The position numbers and the translations under genes were made by a program. Under the pieces are notes generated by a model. That model saw nothing but the letters and a program-made list of their open reading frames with translations. It did no database searches and had not been told where the DNA came from. From a virus (lineage: Duplodnaviria; Heunggongvirae; Uroviricota; Caudoviricetes), in the IMG/VR virus record IMGVR_UViG_2541047850_000013: 8,478 nt of DNA. One strand, 5' to 3'. Position 1 is the first letter of the stretch. The number at the start of each line of letters is the position of its first letter. Shown piece after piece: positions 401-7,479 of this stretch.

Positions 401-679
401 TTACCTCCAGATCCGTTGCTGGTATGTGCGGGATGGGCGCGGTGGGCGTTCGGAATAAGGGAGCCTGACATAGATTATCCAGTGACGATAATCGAGGCTG
501 AGGGCTTTCTTAACCTCGTATCCGCGCCTGCGGTAACACTGAATTATCCATTCCGCCTGCTCTTCAGTGCATGGAGGATGCTGGAACCAGTCTGATTTGA
601 ATACGTGAAAACGCCGTCCGCGCCTGCTGGCAAAGACGGCAGAATCATTAGAATTGTGTAATTTGGTATCGTGCGCCAT
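401..679 (-). CDS. Hypothetical small protein (92 aa), function unknown
   Basis: ORF-track ORF 401..760 trimmed to the first ATG (MAHDTKL...), because the listed start at 760 is a non-ATG codon lying inside the terminator hairpin. Basic, protein-like composition. Start choice uncertain. Confidence 0.35.
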   Translation of the reverse strand: MAHDTKLHNSNDSAVFASRRGRRFHVFKSDWFQHPPCTEEQAEWIIQCYRRRGYEVKKALSLDYRHWIIYVRLPYSERPPRPSRTYQQRIWR

Positions 680-751
680 CGGTTGTCTCTGCTGGCGCAG
701 CAGGTGCCAGTTGTTCAGGCTGGCGTGCGTATTGTAAACCAGAATGCCAGG

Positions 752-783
752 AAAAAACAAAACCCGCCGAAGCGGGTTTTTTG
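752..783. terminator. Bidirectional rho-independent terminator closing the methyltransferase cassette
   Basis: GC-rich hairpin AAACCCGC-CGAA-GCGGGTTT (760..779) with an A-run on the 5' side and a T-run on the 3' side, so either strand reads stem-loop followed by a U-tract. Sits 12 nt past the methyltransferase stop. Confidence 0.75.
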
Positions 784-794
784 TACATATAGAA

Positions 795-1892
795 TTATGG
801 TATTAATCCAGCTGTTCTTGCTTTATTAATATAATTTTTACAGTGGTTAGCCAAATACTCTGCAAACTTGCATGGAAGTGCATTTCCTATTATGACGCAT
901 ACTTTATCCATCAAAGCTGTATCAAACACATAGTTATCAGGAAAAGTCTGTAGTCTAGCAGCTTCTCGAACAGAAATAGTACGCGTATCCTCAGGATGTC
1001 CATATCGCCCACGGCTTAAAGTTGTGCACCCACCTGTAATCGTAGGCGATACGTCATCCCAAAGCATACGACCATAAACATTACTAAATCCTTTATAGTC
1101 GCCTTTATGGCAATCTGGACGGAGTTCTTCGGGAATACACTCCCAAGACATCCCTGGAACAGCCGCTTGTAACCGCTTTATATTGATCTCAGACAAATCC
1201 CTAACAATATGCCAACTCGACAATGGAAACTTCCCTTGCTTCTTAGCCTGTGAAAGAGTTAAGGGTTTTGGCATATCTCCAATAGCTTCTTTAACAGTTA
1301 CCCATTTGGGTTTCTCTCTTCCATCCTTAGAGTGTGATCCATCAGGCAATGGGATGGCAAATCCTTTTCCTGCCAACAGAACAAGCCTTTTTCTGAACTG
1401 TGGTACACCAAAGTCAGCTACTTGCAAAACTCCATAATTAACTATGTAACCAAGTTTTTTCAATCTCTCAATTACTGGCGAAAGAAGATGATTTCCCCGG
1501 GAAGCTAATCCAGGAACATTTTCCATCATGATTGCTGATGGATTGGTTTCTTCAACCAACCGTAACATCTCGTTAATCAATAAATTACGAGGGTCCTCCC
1601 TTTTATACTTGGCAGTGAGACTAGTAAATCCTTGACATGGCGGGCACGCAGATAAAAGATCTAAATGTTGCTCAGGGATAAGATTTAGGATATCACTCCC
1701 CTTTACAAACCGAATATCTTGAACAAAGAGTTTTGTCTCACGATGATTTGCTTGGAAAGTAGCGGCGGCATGTGCGTCCAGTTCAACGGCAGCTTTGACA
1801 TCAAACCCGGCCATTTTTAGTCCCATGGTTAGTCCCCCACCACCGCTAAATAGGTCAACTGCATTCAAACTGGTCACTGTTTTCTCACTCAT
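795..1892 (-). CDS. DNA (cytosine-5)-methyltransferase, 365 aa
   Basis: All diagnostic C5-MTase motifs in canonical order: motif I DLFSGGGG (aa 13-20, AdoMet binding), motif IV PPCQGF with catalytic Cys86, motif VI ENV (aa 124-126), motif VIII QFRKR (aa 165-169), motif IX RTISVREAARLQTFPDNY, motif X GNALP (aa 336-340). A variable target-recognition region lies between motifs VIII and IX. ATG at 1892 overlaps the upstream gene's stop. Confidence 0.93.
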   Translation of the reverse strand: MSEKTVTSLNAVDLFSGGGGLTMGLKMAGFDVKAAVELDAHAAATFQANHRETKLFVQDIRFVKGSDILNLIPEQHLDLLSACPPCQGFTSLTAKYKREDPRNLLINEMLRLVEETNPSAIMMENVPGLASRGNHLLSPVIERLKKLGYIVNYGVLQVADFGVPQFRKRLVLLAGKGFAIPLPDGSHSKDGREKPKWVTVKEAIGDMPKPLTLSQAKKQGKFPLSSWHIVRDLSEINIKRLQAAVPGMSWECIPEELRPDCHKGDYKGFSNVYGRMLWDDVSPTITGGCTTLSRGRYGHPEDTRTISVREAARLQTFPDNYVFDTALMDKVCVIIGNALPCKFAEYLANHCKNYINKARTAGLIP

Positions 1893-3996
1893 TATTTCCC
1901 AACTTCAACTGTTCTGCCTCATCCAAGAATTCTTGGTGAGTTTGAGTTGTCCTCAGCAAGAACCCTGCCCAATCAACGGGTGTTAGGCGTTTTTCTTCGA
2001 TGTATGCAGTATAAGCTTTACGACGTGCCCCACTCAAGCGCTCCCCATCACTTACCAGCGTAACGTGAAAATCAGATGCTATTGATTTAAAATCATTATG
2101 TCTCTCATCGTTCAAAAACTCCTCGAATGTTTCGAAGTAATTAATAATACGATCCATTTCATCATTGGAAATATAATGATGTGGCTTTTTTATTTCAATT
2201 ATTTGTAATTTTCCATCCTGACTAAACAATACAAAGTCTGGTCTTTTATTTTTTTTATCAAAATCTATAAGAAATATCTCCTCACCAGTTTTCTTTTTAT
2301 AAAATTTTTGAAATTCCCTTTTAAGCGTGGACAACGTTTTATTTGCTGTAACTGGGACCCATTGAGGGTTAACTAGCCACGGAGCGGATGCAATTAGATC
2401 TTGTAACTCATCTTCTGCTGTATCCTTTGCGTCTTTTAAAGACTCGAGACGCTCAATAATCTGAAGACGCTTTTTGACCTTTTGACCAAAACTAACGGTT
2501 TCAGCTAGTTGAGCCGTTGCTAAAATATCGTTGAGAACATTGAGCGGTGTATCCGCTTTACTGGAAGCTTCTATTAACTTCTCATCTAAGGATTGTAATG
2601 GTGCTAACATAATACTTAACTGCACTAAATTCTCGAGTGCATCAGGATCATGTAATTCATCACCTCGTAAAGATTTACCCAACAACTTGGCTATTTTTTT
2701 AGCCTGTGCTCGCATATCCTTTTGACCGGCTCCAGGGTATGCTTGCTCGACCTTATCCTCCACTTGCGCTAATTCGAAGAATTGATTCATCATATTATTT
2801 CTAAGGGGGTCGCGAGTTATTTTACCCACAAGTAAAATAACTTCTTGCCCCCAATTCTGAAATTGCGTTCCTAAATCATCAGACCATAGAATATCCCTTC
2901 TATCAGTTTGGATAAGATCTTCTTTTTCGTCTAACCAGTCAGCATGCAACTCACCTACCAAATATGAACGTATAGAGTGCTCTCCAGTAAAACCAGCTTT
3001 TCTATTAAAAACTGCTGTTTGCGCAGCAAACTTACCTCGGCAATAAATTCTAACACCTGCCATTAACTCGTCCTTATAAGGCTCTTTCGCGTATGCAATC
3101 CAACCTAATATCGGGTAAGCTTTCCCTTCATGTTCAAAACCGGCCTTAACAATTGATGAACGCGTGCCGTCAGGATTAAAAGCCGTATAATCACTTAAAT
3201 CCGTACAAGAATCTGTCGCAATACTTCCACTCATGGAACGAAATTCAATTTTAGAGTTAGGCATAACAGGAACAGTAAACTCTCCGACCTCAACTTCATA
3301 GTCAGGATTAGACTTTGTTTTCGAAGTATCAATCAGTTTAATATTCCAGTTTTTACTCTTCACTCCAAAACGTTGTGAAAGCTGCCGAGATAAATCTTTT
3401 ATTTCGCTAATTTTTCTATATTCAAAATCACTTAATATTATTTTAGTATAGGTCCTGTCACTTAGTGTGCCGTCTAAATCCCCAGTTTCCGGTTTATAAG
3501 ACACTGCAGTATCATCCATTATTTTTTCTTTATCTAGCTGAATATGAGCAACCTCATACCCTTCCTTTCCATCACGACTGATTTTTTCCCCACCGGCACT
3601 TATAATCTCGACCCTTTTACAAACACCAAAAGGTGCTAATTTCCCAACGCCTTTCCGTCCCATGACTTTGCGGTGAAACACCTTCGAGGTTTCACCTCTT
3701 TTTGGATCCTTACGTCTTTCTTTGCCAACAACCAAATAAAAGTTCTGTAGTTCATCAGGCGCCATTCCGACGCCATTATCTTCTACTTCTATTGTGACAT
3801 TTTTTGACCTGACAACACCATCCTGTCTAACAGCCAAGTATTGGCCCATAGGTGCTTTTATAGTGACATTAGTCGCATCTGCATCGTAACTGTTAGATAC
3901 TAATTCGGCTATAACAGCATAAGCCCTGTCATATAATTTCACACCTAATTTATCTACTGTCATCCTTGATATCTGCATTTCATATTGACGCGCCAT
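1885..3996 (-). CDS. GHKL-superfamily (MutL/MORC-like) ATPase with central helical region and C-terminal PD-(D/E)xK-like nuclease motif, 703 aa; candidate restriction/effector subunit
   Basis: ATG at 3996 with AGGA 7 nt upstream. Bergerat-fold motifs: N-box ELVSNSYDAD (aa 31-40), G1 box DNGVGM (aa 73-78), G2 box GRKGVGKLAPFG (aa 113-124). Residues about 440-540 are charged, helix-prone and coiled-coil-like. C-terminus GEEIFLIDFDKKNKRPDFVLFSQDGKLQIIEIKKP gives E573...PD587...E601-x-K603. Stop overlaps the methyltransferase start by 8 nt (ATGAGTGA). Confidence 0.85.
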   Translation of the reverse strand: MARQYEMQISRMTVDKLGVKLYDRAYAVIAELVSNSYDADATNVTIKAPMGQYLAVRQDGVVRSKNVTIEVEDNGVGMAPDELQNFYLVVGKERRKDPKRGETSKVFHRKVMGRKGVGKLAPFGVCKRVEIISAGGEKISRDGKEGYEVAHIQLDKEKIMDDTAVSYKPETGDLDGTLSDRTYTKIILSDFEYRKISEIKDLSRQLSQRFGVKSKNWNIKLIDTSKTKSNPDYEVEVGEFTVPVMPNSKIEFRSMSGSIATDSCTDLSDYTAFNPDGTRSSIVKAGFEHEGKAYPILGWIAYAKEPYKDELMAGVRIYCRGKFAAQTAVFNRKAGFTGEHSIRSYLVGELHADWLDEKEDLIQTDRRDILWSDDLGTQFQNWGQEVILLVGKITRDPLRNNMMNQFFELAQVEDKVEQAYPGAGQKDMRAQAKKIAKLLGKSLRGDELHDPDALENLVQLSIMLAPLQSLDEKLIEASSKADTPLNVLNDILATAQLAETVSFGQKVKKRLQIIERLESLKDAKDTAEDELQDLIASAPWLVNPQWVPVTANKTLSTLKREFQKFYKKKTGEEIFLIDFDKKNKRPDFVLFSQDGKLQIIEIKKPHHYISNDEMDRIINYFETFEEFLNDERHNDFKSIASDFHVTLVSDGERLSGARRKAYTAYIEEKRLTPVDWAGFLLRTTQTHQEFLDEAEQLKLGNNE

Positions 3997-4090
3997 TTAA
4001 ATATCCTTCTAAAAGAGTATTTTTTGCTCAAAAAGGGGAAGTTTATGTTTGACTAACATAGCAAAAAAACTTTCATCTTCAAGAGGTTCA
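3997..4090 (-). promoter_or_regulatory. RBS and AT-rich putative promoter region for the ATPase/methyltransferase cassette
   Basis: AGGA at 4004..4007 (minus strand), 7 nt from the ATG. Upstream sequence is very A+T-rich with weak sigma70-like hexamers (for example TTGAAG-16-TATGTT on the minus strand). No single convincing -35/-10 pair. Confidence 0.3.
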
Positions 4091-4343
4091 CACCAAAAGA
4101 ATTTACCTGGTTCACATAACCAGCTGGATTAGTGTTGAGTTTTGGGTAAACCTGAGGATTGAGAAACCAGTACTGATAAATGGGTATCCGCTGTTTTCGT
4201 CCCTCTCCTGAGCTACCGTGTATTGAAATGGCATCGACACTATTACATGGTAGGAGGTTGTATGTATGGTTTAGATATTTTGCATCTTTCACAGACACTT
4301 TTTACCTTTGCCATATCCTTCCACATTGTTTCTCCGGAAATCA

Positions 4344-4511
4344 CTAACGGTTTGGCATTTGCAGAACCATTATCAGCCATAGCTTCTTGCCGTTAACTTC
4401 GGTTGCACCTGATTGTTGCTCACCTTCAGGCAATGATGGGTTATATACACGGACTGAGCTCACTGCAGTAACAACCTTCCCAGTCAACTTACCTATGCTT
4501 TCAACCATCAT
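4344..4511 (-). CDS. Small hypothetical ORF (55 aa); coding status doubtful
   Basis: ORF-track ORF 4344..4565 trimmed to the first ATG (MMVESIGKL...); listed start is TTG. Weak RBS, and an alternative 46-codon ORF (4240..4380, minus strand) overlaps in another frame. Confidence 0.2.
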   Translation of the reverse strand: MMVESIGKLTGKVVTAVSSVRVYNPSLPEGEQQSGATEVNGKKLWLIMVLQMPNR

Positions 4512-4572
4512 CGTAGCGGCATACTTCCGAATTGCTATTATTTCAATTCTGCACCGTTTGCTCAATGTAACG

Positions 4573-4983
4573 CTACCTAAAACGTCGCCGATAGAACGCC
4601 AGCACGCGCTGCATAACTTCGCTCTTCCGGCACTCGCTACAGATTATGTTCTGACGCCTGTCATAACGACGTATTTCTCCATCAGGTAATGACCAGATAA
4701 GGTCCGGATCAACCGCAGATGGTTTCTTCAGCTTTGCCCTTGAGAGCTTTTTACGGGCATTTTGCCAGTCCTTACGCGCCTGTTCAGACGGGAATAACCC
4801 GTAACTAGGGTTGTATACATCGCCACTGGCAACCAGCTCTCTGGCCAGAACGCTCATCAGATATCTTGTTGCCCCAGTTTTAGCTTCCAGTTGTCGTAAC
4901 GTCTCACGCCCACTCTGGCGTACGAGTTCAAGAACCTGCCCTTTAATTTTTTCCCGCTCTTCTTGTGTAAAAACTTTTGCCAC
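4573..4983 (-). CDS. Ren-like protein (phage lambda ren family) with N-terminal extension, 136 aa
   Basis: GTG start at 4983 preceded by strong AGGAGG 4 nt upstream. Central KTGAT...LARELVASG and C-terminal SECRKSEVMQRVLAFY resemble, from memory, lambda Ren (…ALTGAT…MARAGLL… and …KECRQSAAMKRVLAVY…). Sits directly after the replication gene, as ren does in lambda. Confidence 0.5.
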   Translation of the reverse strand: MAKVFTQEEREKIKGQVLELVRQSGRETLRQLEAKTGATRYLMSVLARELVASGDVYNPSYGLFPSEQARKDWQNARKKLSRAKLKKPSAVDPDLIWSLPDGEIRRYDRRQNIICSECRKSEVMQRVLAFYRRRFR

Positions 4984-6741: not shown

Positions 6742-6768
6742 CGAATGAACTCCAAAAAACACGCAACA

Positions 6769-6838
6769 ATATTAGGCTTAGCCTAATGAAATTGTCAATA
6801 GGCTATGCCTAATACATCGAGAGTAGGGATTGCCTAAC
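6769..6838. promoter_or_regulatory. OR-like region: three 17-bp palindromic operators overlapping a leftward sigma70 promoter for the cro-like operon
   Basis: Operators ATTAGGCTTAGCCTAAT (6771..6787), AATAGGCTATGCCTAAT (6797..6813) and degenerate AGTAGGGATTGCCTAAC (6822..6838), centres about 25 bp apart. Minus-strand promoter: -35 TTGACA (complement of 6793..6798), 18-bp spacer, -10 TAATAT (complement of 6769..6774). Confidence 0.65.
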
Positions 6839-6865: not shown

Positions 6866-7342
6866 ATGCTTAGTGGTAAAGACTTAGGCCGAGCGATAGA
6901 GCAGGCCATTAACAAAAAAATTGCATCAGGAGCCGTCAAATCAAAGGCGGAAATCGCACGTCATTTCAAAGTCCAACCACCATCAATCCATGACTGGATT
7001 AAGAAAGGTTCGATAAGTAAAGACAAACTTCCAGAACTATGGCGTTTCTTTTCTGATGTGGTTGGTCCAGAGCATTGGGGGCTTAACGAATACCCCATAC
7101 CAACCCCATCCACTTCAGATACAAAAAGTGAACTTTTAGACATAAACAGCCTTTATCAAGCCGCCTCTGATGAAAAAAAAGCAATTGTGGCTTTCATCTT
7201 ATCTGGAAATGCTACGGAGCCTAGTTGGGTTGATTATGACGTTCGCGCCTACATTGCCGCAATGGAAATGAAGGTAGCTAACTATCTGAAAAATCAAGAA
7301 TCAAAACGGAAAAGCCAGAACATCACCAAGACAGGAACTTAA
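6866..7342 (+). CDS. racR: CI-like prophage repressor, RacR-like, without an autocleavage domain, 158 aa
   Basis: ATG at 6866 with GGAG upstream. N-terminal HTH KSKAEIARHFKVQPPSIHDWIKKG. No S24 peptidase (LexA-like Ser/Lys) motifs visible. Divergent from the YdaS/YdaT-like genes and flanked by operator sets on both sides; length matches RacR as recalled. Confidence 0.8.
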   Translation: MLSGKDLGRAIEQAINKKIASGAVKSKAEIARHFKVQPPSIHDWIKKGSISKDKLPELWRFFSDVVGPEHWGLNEYPIPTPSTSDTKSELLDINSLYQAASDEKKAIVAFILSGNATEPSWVDYDVRAYIAAMEMKVANYLKNQESKRKSQNITKTGT

Positions 7343-7416: not shown

Positions 7417-7479
7417 ATTAGGTTGCGCCCAAATTATTAGGCATAGCCTATTGACAAGTAATTAGGCATTTCCTATAGT
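7417..7479 (+). promoter_or_regulatory. OL-like region: operator repeats overlapping a near-consensus rightward sigma70 promoter (pL-like)
   Basis: -35 TTGACA (7451..7456), 17-bp spacer, -10 TATAGT (7474..7479). Operator copies ATTAGGCATAGCCTATT (7436..7452), ATTAGGCATTTCCTATA (7461..7477) and a degenerate copy around 7417..7433. A 22-bp segment (7436..7457) is the exact reverse complement of 6792..6813. Confidence 0.7.

What the first reader, a model, noticed from the sequence alone, without database searches (positions are those of the whole stretch)
752..4343. Cassette has the hallmarks of an acquired moron: AT-rich composition, own upstream spacer, strong terminator
Sampled lines inside 795..3996 look markedly more A+T-rich than the flanking replication and left-end genes (estimated by eye, not computed across the interval). 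The cassette is preceded by about 350 bp with no convincing gene and followed at once by a bidirectional terminator. This promoter-gene-terminator layout, placed downstream of the replication and ren-like genes, suggests horizontal insertion into a prophage accessory slot and expression during lysogeny.
Basis: partly seen in the sequence, partly recalled or inferred. Interest (0 to 1): 0.5.

Follow-up and report, generated by a model that had tools for sequence, protein, structure and literature searches.

The report
Restriction-modification cassette in prophage cargo slot
The AT-rich block is a horizontally acquired two-gene restriction-modification system (a cytosine methylase plus an ATPase-nuclease) sitting in a cargo slot of a Rac/Qin-like E. 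coli prophage that carries different defence or addiction genes in other strains. It is a clear but ordinary example of a phage "moron".

Summary
The cassette is 39.9% G+C, against 51-55% in the adjoining replication and nin-type genes. It is the most AT-rich 3.8-kb stretch of the 25-kb prophage. A hairpin with U-runs on both sides follows it, and 576 bp (not 350) without any recognisable gene precede it.

All genes here are on the minus strand. The cargo is a 703-aa GHKL-ATPase/PD-(D/E)xK nuclease (paraMORC3 / HgiDII-like architecture). It overlaps by 8 bp a 365-aa m5C DNA methyltransferase, so the pair reads as a Type II-like restriction-modification system.

Only 21 of 5,426 complete E. coli genomes carry it, always between the ren-like DUF977 gene and the ydfU-side genes. 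Related prophages carry SIR2, Doc, QueH, DUF4209, ImmA/HTH or SMEK genes there, usually with hokD.

The cassette is 99.6-100% identical across prophages whose flanks are only 89-99% identical. Homologous pairs lie in Citrobacter prophages, beside a phage-type integrase in Serratia, and in a Pantoea conjugative element.

A promoter-like block upstream is 88-95% conserved while synonymous sites are saturated.

Caveats:
- Expression in lysogeny is inferred, not shown.
- The terminator is the generic hokD-type hairpin already present at this slot.
- The recognition sequence is unknown.

Verdict: a new member of a known kind, of modest interest.

The parts
748..780 (-). Intrinsic-terminator hairpin (stem-loop 780-759, UUCG loop) plus U-run (758-748). 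It is bidirectional in form and marks the left edge of the exchanged cassette.
   Evidence: for the structure. Homology with cassette-less prophages L002/L003 ends at 778-780. The same 18-nt core follows hokD in relatives and follows the homologous methylase in Citrobacter. It is present in all 5,426 genomes.
795..1892 (-). DNA (cytosine-5) methyltransferase, 365 aa: the modification subunit.
   Evidence: Pfam PF00145, E 6e-58, full length. TIGR00675 dcm 154 bits against a cut-off of 100.65. PADLOC MTase_II 9e-91. Motifs FSGGGG, PPCQ, ENV, QFRKR and GNALP are readable in the translation. pN 0.08-0.09 against pS 0.76 versus the Serratia and Citrobacter orthologues.
1885..3996 (-). 703-aa GHKL ATPase + middle (transducer-like) domain + C-terminal PD-(D/E)xK nuclease: the putative restriction subunit (paraMORC3 / HgiDII-like). 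Its stop codon overlaps the methylase start by 8 bp (ATGAGTGA, 1892-1885).
3997..4119 (-). Leader that travels with the R-M genes across genera. It holds a promoter-like block 4090-4051: -35 TTGAAG (4082-4077), a 16-nt spacer, and an extended -10 TGcTATGTT (4063-4055). The Shine-Dalgarno AGAAGGA lies at 4010-4004.
   Evidence: Nucleotide homology to the Citrobacter, Serratia and IMG/VR L107 loci ends at 4092-4119. The block is 38/40 (Citrobacter) and 35/40 (Serratia) identical while synonymous sites are saturated at pS 0.76. The consensus scan did not list it because it matches only 8 of 12 positions; the hexamers were read.
4120..4575 (.). Orphan AT-rich spacer. It moves with the cassette among E. 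coli prophages but is absent from the homologous loci of other genera. No gene, RNA family or repeat was recognised in it.
   Evidence: Found only in the same 21 genomes, at 99.7-100% identity. No PHROG hit for any ORF, no Rfam hit, no notable repeats.
4573..4983 (-). Ren-like DUF977 gene: the right-hand conserved flank and recombination substrate. Its last five codons (RRRFR) and stop belong to the cassette side of the junction.
   Evidence: PF06163 3e-29. phrog_142 'Ren-like exclusion protein' 6e-45. Homology with L002/L003 starts at 4576/4590. C-termini differ after ...LAFY in every cargo variant. First differences to the right of the cassette lie at 4617, 4747 and 4788 in three prophages.
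401..679 (-). Conserved 92-aa phage ORF (phrog_1212), followed by the DUF968/ydfU 3' part (1-399): the left-hand conserved flank leading to rusA and Q.
   Evidence: Identity to other cassette-bearing prophages drops to 89-96% immediately left of position 730.

Best explanation
Window 757-4575 (minus strand) is a horizontally acquired, self-contained cargo module in the nin-equivalent region of a Rac/Qin-like lambdoid prophage of E. coli B2.3. It lies between the ren-like DUF977 gene and the ORF279-ydfU-rusA-Q genes.

Its cargo is a two-gene Type II-like restriction-modification system. The first gene encodes a 703-aa nuclease with an N-terminal GHKL ATPase, an Hsp90/MutL/MORC-like middle domain and a C-terminal PD-(D/E)xK (Shedu-type) nuclease. 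The second encodes an m5C methyltransferase whose start overlaps the nuclease stop by 8 bp, which suggests translational coupling.

Inferred mechanism:
- A sigma-70 promoter about 60-85 bp upstream of the nuclease gene drives both genes independently of the RacR-repressed early promoter, so the lysogen is methylated.
- Unmethylated incoming DNA is cut. The ATPase probably acts as a dimerising clamp that licenses the nuclease.
- Loss of the prophage would leave cells under-methylated, so the module also acts as an addiction system. That is the role hokD, relBE or Doc play in the same slot of other prophages.
- The hairpin right after the methylase stops this constitutive transcript from reading into rusA and Q.

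The module spreads among prophages by homologous recombination in the conserved flanks.

Shown here: composition, boundaries, rarity, slot variability, domain content, conserved catalytic residues, R-M synteny and purifying selection. Inferred: promoter activity, expression in lysogeny, methylation-sensitive cleavage, the ATPase role and the addiction effect.
For: Identity of the genes.

Obligate pairing. In 75 of 78 loci from GTDB species genomes with enough sequence downstream (relatives at 49-63% identity, many phyla), an m5C methylase lies directly downstream on the same strand. The other 3 have one within 6 kb. The same pairing is seen in 8 individually inspected loci, one of them with vsr downstream.

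Selection. pN is 0.07-0.09 against pS 0.76 for both genes, and both ORFs are intact in all 21 genomes.

Acquisition:
- G+C 39.8% against 48.7% for the rest of the prophage.
- The R-M pair is 5-14 G+C points below its flanks in eight other hosts.
- Present in 21 of 5,426 genomes while the flanks occur in 4,853.
- The identical cassette sits in prophages with at least four different immunity or replication modules.
- Identity is 99.6-100% inside 757-4575, against 89-96% just to the left and 94-99% to the right, with variable right-hand crossover points.

Slot variability. SIR2, SMEK with a methyltransferase, DUF5677, Doc toxin-antitoxin, QueH, DUF4209, ImmA/HTH and DUF551 occupy the slot in other prophages, nearly always with hokD.

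Own signals. The promoter-like block is 88-95% identical across genera. The terminator is documented.

Precedents. R.HgiDII has a GHKL N-terminal domain (PMC2441816). The paraMORC3 family combines GHKL, an S5 domain and an RE-fold nuclease in R-M contexts (PMC2292703). The GHKL-Shedu protein VcSduA needs both its ATPase and its nuclease residues for anti-phage activity (PMC12137116).
Against: - There are no expression, methylation or cleavage data for this cassette or any close homologue, and the recognition sequence is unknown.
- The nuclease scores 237 bits against the 550-bit cut-off of the BbrUII/HgiDII equivalog model, so it is a relative and not a member.
- The promoter matches only 8 of 12 consensus positions plus an extended -10, and the scan did not call it.
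- No controller protein or other obvious device that would delay restriction after entry into a new host was seen.
- The terminator is not specific to the cassette.
- 455 bp of the module (4120-4575) has no explanation.
Confidence: 0.8

Rival explanations
1. The ATPase-nuclease is a stand-alone GHKL-Shedu (type I-D) immune nuclease like VcSduA. On this view it senses infection rather than the absence of methylation. The adjacent methylase would be functionally independent, for example a phage anti-restriction or orphan methylase.
For: The domain architecture is the same as VcSduA's: GHKL plus DUF4263 nuclease, with both activities required. There is a PADLOC SduA hit at 1.7e-5. Pfam SduA_C hits occur in 45 of 60 homologues. 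Iyer et al. noted stand-alone paraMORC3 genes.
Against: Within this family the methylase is directly downstream in 75 of 78 loci across many phyla and within 6 kb in the rest. The two ORFs overlap by 8 bp. They share the same level of purifying selection and the same G+C deficit. One relative also carries vsr, which is typical of m5C R-M units.
Confidence: 0.1
2. The cassette is a decaying or partly inactive remnant. For example, only the methylase may still work as a solitary enzyme and the nuclease may be dead, so the module gives no restriction.
For: No functional data exist. The prophage integrase is frameshifted, so the prophage itself may be grounded. No control element for safe establishment was found.
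Against: Both ORFs are full length in 21 genomes. All GHKL and PD-(D/E)xK catalytic residues are retained. pN/pS is about 0.1 for the nuclease against orthologues in other genera. The recent spread of an identical copy across different prophages is hard to reconcile with a dead gene.
Confidence: 0.07
3. It is not an acquired moron. On this view it is an ordinary, vertically inherited part of the phage early-right operon, transcribed only from the RacR-controlled early promoter during lytic growth, for example to methylate progeny DNA.
For: It lies in the same orientation as the early operon, and no terminator-like site was found between DUF977 and the cassette. Early transcription will therefore read into it as well.
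Against: It is present in 0.4% of genomes, against 89% that carry the flanks. There is a sharp step in both composition and identity at its borders. Homologues occur outside phages, in a Pantoea conjugative element and in chromosomes of many phyla. Its own promoter-like block is conserved.
Confidence: 0.03

Closest known systems
HgiDII / BbrUII-type Type II restriction-modification systems (NCBIfam NF050001)
   Same: The nuclease of about 650-700 aa has an N-terminal GHKL ATPase domain and aligns with the family model over its full length (E 3e-70). It is paired with a DNA methyltransferase. The GHKL N-terminal domain of R.HgiDII is documented in PMC2441816.
   Different: It scores far below the equivalog cut-off (237 against 550 bits), so its specificity cannot be transferred. 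From my own knowledge, those enzymes recognise GTCGAC. M.BbrUII is an N6-adenine methylase (PMC5829577), whereas the partner here is an m5C enzyme. The recognition site of this system is unknown.
paraMORC3 family (Iyer, Abhiman & Aravind 2008, PMC2292703)
   Same: GHKL, a middle domain, and a C-terminal RE-fold nuclease with a D...ExK signature. The family is sporadic and laterally mobile, and it is associated with cytosine methylases and Vsr.
   Different: That family was defined by computation only. I did not align this protein with its seed members. A subset of paraMORC3 proteins stands alone, whereas this clade is essentially always linked to a methylase.
VcSduA, a GHKL-Shedu (type I-D) protein of the Vibrio cholerae WASA-1 prophage (PMC12137116)
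   Same: A prophage-borne GHKL ATPase plus DUF4263-type PD-(D/E)xK nuclease. The catalytic Glu of motif I and the Lys of the nuclease motif are conserved here (E31, K603). In VcSduA both are required for defence.
   Different: VcSduA is described as a single-gene system. Here the nuclease is translationally overlapped with an m5C methylase. The sequence relationship is weak: the PADLOC SduA hit is 1.7e-5 over about 100 residues.
Phage morons and prophage defence hotspots (Cumby et al. 2012 on morons; P2/P4 hotspots, PMC9122126)
   Same: Non-essential cargo of deviant composition with its own promoter-like and terminator elements, sitting at a fixed position between conserved phage genes. The content differs from strain to strain and is rich in defence genes.
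   Different: The phage type and the slot differ: lambdoid, between the ren-like gene and ydfU/rusA/Q. No empty-slot version was seen, so this is cassette replacement rather than simple insertion.
relBE-hokD locus of the E. coli K-12 Qin prophage
   Same: By the hokD-rem-ydfU gene order seen, it appears to be the same slot next to ydfU; the K-12 locus itself was not fetched here. Its genes are reported as horizontally acquired addiction modules (PMC6379469). The hairpin after the methylase is the one that follows hokD.
   Different: Here hokD and rem are absent and an R-M system takes their place.

Membership tests
Moron (extra phage cargo unit) | Absent from otherwise syntenic relatives | tested here: met
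   The cassette is in 21 of 5,426 genomes and the flanks in 4,853. Breakpoints lie at 778-780 and 4576-4590.
Moron (extra phage cargo unit) | Nucleotide composition differs from the surrounding phage genes | tested here: met
   39.8% against 48.7% G+C, GC3 0.31-0.32, and the lowest of 216 sliding windows.
Moron (extra phage cargo unit) | Own promoter | tested here: inconclusive
   TTGAAG-16-TGcTATGTT at 4082-4055 is 88-95% conserved across genera while synonymous sites are saturated. It matches only 8 of 12 consensus positions, and there are no transcript data.
Moron (extra phage cargo unit) | Own terminator | tested here: met
   The hairpin at 780-759 with a U-run. It also follows the homologous methylase in Citrobacter, Serratia (a variant) and L107. 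Caveat: the same hairpin pre-exists at this slot after hokD.
Moron (extra phage cargo unit) | Flanking genes are adjacent in relatives (simple insertion) | tested here: not met
   All ten comparison prophages inspected carry other cargo in the slot. This is a replacement in a hypervariable region.
Moron (extra phage cargo unit) | Expressed from the repressed prophage | not testable with these tools
   Requires RNA-seq, 5'-RACE or methylome data from the lysogen.
Type II restriction-modification system | Active-looking DNA methyltransferase | tested here: met
   PF00145 at 197 bits over the full length. dcm TIGR00675 at 154 bits against a cut-off of 100.65. Motifs I, IV, VI, VIII and X are present. 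The best matches among solved structures are Dnmt1, M.HaeIII and M.HhaI.
Type II restriction-modification system | Endonuclease with catalytic residues | tested here: met
Type II restriction-modification system | Nuclease and methylase genes conserved as a linked pair | tested here: met
   75 of 78 loci have the methylase directly downstream and 3 of 78 have it within 6 kb. The genes overlap by 8 bp here.
Type II restriction-modification system | Sequence-specific cleavage blocked by the cognate methylation | not testable with these tools
   Biochemistry or a methylome is needed.
BbrUII/HgiDII family restriction enzyme (NF050001 equivalog) | Score at or above the curated cut-off | tested here: not met
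   237.4 bits against a cut-off of 550, although residues 5-697 align to model positions 1-648 of 659. It is a related subfamily only.
paraMORC3 | GHKL ATPase motifs, an S5-like middle domain and a C-terminal RE-fold nuclease | tested here: met
   Motifs ExxxNxxDA, DxGxG and GxxGxG are invariant. Residues about 1-500 superpose on Hsp90, GyrB, MutL and MORC N-terminal plus middle domains. Nuclease evidence is as given above. Seed sequences of the family were not compared directly.
Shedu (type I-D, GHKL N-terminal domain) | DUF4263 / SduA_C nuclease domain | tested here: inconclusive
   The window protein hits PADLOC SduA at 1.7e-5. Pfam SduA_C hits 45 of 60 homologues but was not listed for the window protein itself. 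No Shedu structure appeared among the fold hits.
Shedu (type I-D, GHKL N-terminal domain) | Single-gene system without a modification partner | tested here: not met
   The methylase neighbour is essentially obligate.

The most novel reading that the evidence does not exclude
Two linked readings remain open.

First, the interval between the ren-like DUF977 gene and ydfU may be a general, so far uncatalogued defence and addiction hotspot of Rac/Qin-like lambdoid prophages. Its right junction is fixed inside the DUF977 reading frame, right after ...LAFY, so each cargo supplies its own C-terminal tail. Its cassettes end in the same terminator hairpin, which could serve as a short-homology crossover point.

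Second, its R-M cargo may show that GHKL-Shedu ('type I-D') nucleases and HgiDII-type restriction enzymes form one family. In that family, self/non-self discrimination by m5C methylation would be the common state and stand-alone forms such as VcSduA would be derived.
Probability: 0.3. Interest if true: 0.45.

Novelty: new member of a known kind. Interest (0 to 1): 0.25.

Why it matters
RefSeq labels the two genes only 'ATP-binding protein' and 'DNA cytosine methyltransferase'. Reading them as an R-M system predicts strain-specific m5C methylation. It also predicts a barrier to phage infection and transformation in the carrying E. coli genomes sampled here, which include human blood and stool and poultry isolates.

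The locus is also a clean example of how lambdoid prophages swap defence and addiction cargo at one fixed slot. It offers a methylase-coupled relative in which the unexplained role of the GHKL ATPase in Shedu/paraMORC nucleases could be studied. None of this overturns current understanding.

Tried and rejected
- **Rfam.** The permissive scan of the whole window gave only sub-threshold hits, driven by the terminator hairpin (Leu_leader, rsmX and isrK at 646-848, 20-26 bits against cut-offs of 50-56). I rejected them.
- **Spacer ORFs.** Six small ORFs in the 3997-4689 region have no PHROG family, and no notable repeats occur there. No gene is proposed for the spacer.
- **Phage records.** A distant blastn of 752-4600 against 50,697 GenBank phage records found nothing. 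The cassette is seen only in prophages and IMG/VR contigs.
- **Special recombination site.** I considered whether the hairpin is a dedicated cassette-exchange site. The ImmA/HTH module in L003 and the Doc module in L016 are bracketed by two copies. However, the motif occurs in every E. coli genome (median 5 places, including non-prophage sites). Identity of the hairpin is therefore weak evidence, and I kept this only as a speculative reading.
- **Recognition sequence.** I could not infer it. The solved-structure and family searches identify only a generic m5C methylase. Counts of GTCGAC and common m5C sites in the 25-kb prophage are uninformative.
- **Literature.** A search for the three RefSeq protein accessions found no paper.
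- **Internal promoters.** Promoter-like sites inside the 3' end of the nuclease gene (2198-2170, 2037-2008) could give the methylase a head start, but they were not pursued because coding constraint confounds any conservation test.

Full report
**Source and layout**

The window is identical to E. coli strain B2.3 (NZ_CM185023.1 231548-240025, reverse complement), inside a lambdoid prophage. That prophage lies next to a tRNA-Ser gene and mtfA.

All early-right genes are on the minus strand. Reading in the direction of transcription:
- racR, divergent (+6866-7342)
- ydaS/cro-like (6741-6418)
- ydaT (6434-6009)
- an O-like HTH replication gene (5986-5024)
- DUF977 (4983-4573), which is PHROG 'Ren-like exclusion protein'
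- a 576-bp gap
- a 703-aa ORF (3996-1885)
- a 365-aa ORF (1892-795)
- a hairpin (780-759)
- a conserved 92-aa phage ORF (679-401)
- the 3' part of DUF968/ydfU (399-1)

In the genome, ydfU is followed by rusA and the Q antiterminator. 'Preceded' and 'followed' have to be read on the minus strand.

**Observation check**

*Composition.*
- G+C is 39.9% for 795-3996, against 55.3% for 1-751 and 51.1% for the replication genes.
- GC3 is 0.31-0.32 in the cassette genes, against 0.48-0.57 in those flanking genes.
- Over the 25.3-kb prophage, the variable segment is 39.8% against 48.7% for the rest.
- It holds the lowest of 216 sliding 3.8-kb windows.
- AT-richness is not exclusive to the cassette. The immunity region (racR, ydaS) and several small genes are 36-43%.

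*Spacer.* The gene-free interval is 576 bp (3997-4572), not about 350. It has no family hit, no RefSeq annotation in any carrier and no Rfam match.

*Terminator.* The hairpin has a 9-bp stem and a UUCG loop, with U-runs on both strands. MFE is -14.6 and -12.8 kcal/mol, with z about -3. It starts 14 nt after the methylase stop.

**What the cargo is**

*The methylase.* The 365-aa protein is a complete C5 cytosine DNA methyltransferase. Support comes from PF00145 (E 6e-58) and the dcm TIGR model above its cut-off. PADLOC gives MTase_II at 9e-91. All the classical motifs are present.

*The nuclease.* The 703-aa protein has a GHKL ATPase domain (HATPase_c_3, 7e-19) and a C-terminal PD-(D/E)xK region (HSDR_N_2 at 4e-4; PADLOC SduA at 1.7e-5).
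- It aligns end to end with NCBIfam NF050001, 'BbrUII/HgiDII family restriction enzyme' (E 3e-70). However, it scores 237 bits against a 550-bit cut-off, so it is a related subfamily.
- Among 60 homologues at 52-91% identity, the GHKL motifs are invariant: E31, N35 and D38-A41; D73, G75 and G77; G113 and K115-K119.
- Of the nuclease signature, D587 and K603 are invariant and E601 is nearly invariant, at 90% or more.
- 45 of the 60 homologues hit Pfam SduA_C.
- An AlphaFold model (mean pLDDT 76) superposes over 400-500 residues on Hsp90, GyrB, MutL, MORC2/3 and SMCHD1. This indicates a GHKL domain plus a transducer-like middle domain.

*Published parallels.* This architecture has been described three times:
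- R.HgiDII has a GHKL N-terminal domain (PMC2441816).
- The paraMORC3 family combines GHKL, an S5 domain and an RE-fold nuclease (PMC2292703).
- Type I-D GHKL-Shedu proteins include the prophage-borne VcSduA, which needs both its ATPase and its nuclease residues for defence (PMC12137116; bioRxiv 10.1101/2023.08.10.552793).

**R-M system or solitary nuclease**

The nuclease stop and the methylase start overlap by 8 bp (ATGAGTGA).

In seven individually inspected homologous loci, the methylase follows the nuclease on the same strand, once with vsr behind it. These loci are three Citrobacter prophages, one Serratia locus beside a phage-type integrase, a Pantoea conjugative element and chromosomal sites in other bacteria.

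In 80 loci from GTDB species genomes at 49-63% identity, 75 of the 78 with room downstream have an m5C methylase directly downstream. The other three have one within 6 kb.

Both genes are under strong purifying selection: pN 0.07-0.09 against saturated pS 0.76. I therefore read the pair as a Type II-like R-M system whose nuclease belongs to the GHKL-Shedu/paraMORC3 kind. The recognition sequence could not be inferred.

**Acquisition and the slot**

*Rarity.* The cassette, including the spacer, occurs in 21 of 5,426 complete E. coli genomes. It is always at this position, and it does not occur on plasmids. The flanks occur in 4,853 genomes.

*Breakpoints.* Against cassette-less relatives, homology breaks at 778-780 on the left, at the 5' edge of the hairpin. 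It breaks at 4576-4590 on the right, at the end of DUF977.

*Other cargo in the slot.* Nearly all of these prophages also carry hokD in the slot.

| Cargo |
|---|
| DUF551 and small ORFs |
| ImmA/HTH |
| SIR2-family protein |
| SMEK protein with a SAM methyltransferase |
| DUF5677 |
| Doc toxin-antitoxin |
| QueH |
| DUF4209 |

From the hokD-rem-ydfU gene order seen, this appears to be the slot that holds relBE-hokD in K-12 Qin. Those genes have been reported as horizontally acquired (PMC6379469). No empty version of the slot was seen, so the event is a cassette replacement.

*Backbone diversity.* The same cassette sits in prophages with at least four different immunity or replication modules and with different Q genes.

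*Identity step.*
- Identity is 99.6-100% inside 757-4575.
- It falls to 93-95% in 400-756 and 89-96% in 1-399.
- It is 94-99% in DUF977.
- The last difference on the left is at 730 in all three comparisons. The first differences on the right are at 4617, 4747 and 4788.

This is the signature of recent spread by homologous recombination in the conserved flanks.

*Across genera.* Nucleotide homology of 71-81% covers only about 761-4119. That span is the genes, the hairpin and about 123 bp upstream. In every host the pair is 5-14 G+C points below its surroundings. Citrobacter and an IMG/VR prophage also carry it in their nin regions, upstream of rusA and Q.

**Regulatory signals**

*Promoter.* The conserved leader holds TTGAAG (4082-4077), a 16-nt spacer and TGcTATGTT (4063-4055), which is an extended -10. 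A Shine-Dalgarno sequence (AGAAGGA) lies 7 nt before the ATG. The 40-nt block 4090-4051 is 38/40 identical to Citrobacter and 35/40 identical to Serratia. By comparison, the 5'-UTR is 63-76% identical, DNA further upstream is at random level, and synonymous sites are saturated. This is good comparative evidence for a functional promoter belonging to the cassette, but it is not proof.

*Terminator.* The terminator is real, but it is not private to the cassette. The identical 18-nt core lies about 69 bp downstream of hokD in cassette-less relatives. It brackets the ImmA/HTH and Doc modules in two prophages, and it follows the homologous methylase in Citrobacter. The motif occurs in all 5,426 genomes, with a median of 5 places.

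Its likely job at this slot is to keep constitutive cargo transcripts from reading into rusA and Q. That function is my inference.

**Unexplained points**

The 455 bp at 4120-4575 move with the cassette within E. coli, are AT-rich and match nothing else.

The C-terminal tail of DUF977 differs after ...LAFY in every cargo variant. The right border of the variable region therefore lies at one fixed point inside that reading frame.

**Verdict**

The object is a prophage-borne R-M moron of a known architectural family in a hypervariable cargo slot. It is a new member of a known kind and of modest interest.

Noticed in passing
window 6765-6837 and 7430-7476: RacR is flanked by operator-like palindromes (TTAGGCATAGCCTAT type). 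Arms 6792-6814 and 7435-7457 are 23 nt long and 100% complementary. Each carries a TTGACA -35 of a divergent promoter-like site: 6798-6769 on the minus strand towards ydaS, and 7451-7479 on the plus strand (11 of 12 consensus positions) towards ydfA. They look like the OR/OL pair of this immunity region.
   Followed up: partly
window 759-780; L003 3761-3778 and 5110-5127; L016 1373-1390 and 2220-2237; L013/L014/L018 about 1328-1345: The hairpin after the methylase has the same 18-nt core as the hairpin about 69 bp downstream of hokD in related prophages. The ImmA/HTH and Doc toxin-antitoxin modules are each bracketed by two copies of it. It may act as a recurrent cassette end, but the motif is present in every E. 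coli genome.
   Followed up: partly
window 4573-4590 (C-terminus of DUF977): The Ren-like DUF977 protein ends differently after ...LAFY in every cargo variant: RRRFR with the R-M cassette, and QGNFEEVVR, QGNFQKVLL, KGNIRTLPR, QGNVRYFRRY or QG elsewhere. The variable region therefore always begins at the same codon inside this gene.
   Followed up: partly
window 4120-4575: 455 bp of AT-rich DNA with no recognisable gene, RNA or repeat. It is found only together with this cassette in 21 E. coli genomes and is absent from the homologous loci of other genera.
   Followed up: partly
L001 5256-5795 (outside the window, same prophage): A YfbU-family gene lies on the opposite strand between the HNH/terminase genes and the lysis genes. 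Its G+C is 39% in a 50-54% neighbourhood, so it may be another moron.
   Followed up: no
L001 8598-8847 and 24249-25299 (outside the window): The prophage carries three tRNA genes (Arg, Arg, Ile) between the Q region and the lysis genes. Its integrase is annotated as frameshifted. It lies next to a tRNA-Ser gene and mtfA, and within a few kb of the integrase and ybt genes of the yersiniabactin island.
   Followed up: no
L020 7771-9753; L021 7194-7610; L019 1-3908: In distant relatives the R-M pair has extra neighbours. There is a second HATPase_c_3 protein of 660 aa in a Rhizomicrobium genome, a vsr gene directly after the methylase in another, and a complete Type I R-M system immediately upstream in a third.
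   Followed up: no
window 1885-3996: The nuclease matches PHROG 6203 over its full length (E 9e-78). That phage protein family is still labelled 'unknown function', and RefSeq calls the protein only 'ATP-binding protein'.
   Followed up: yes
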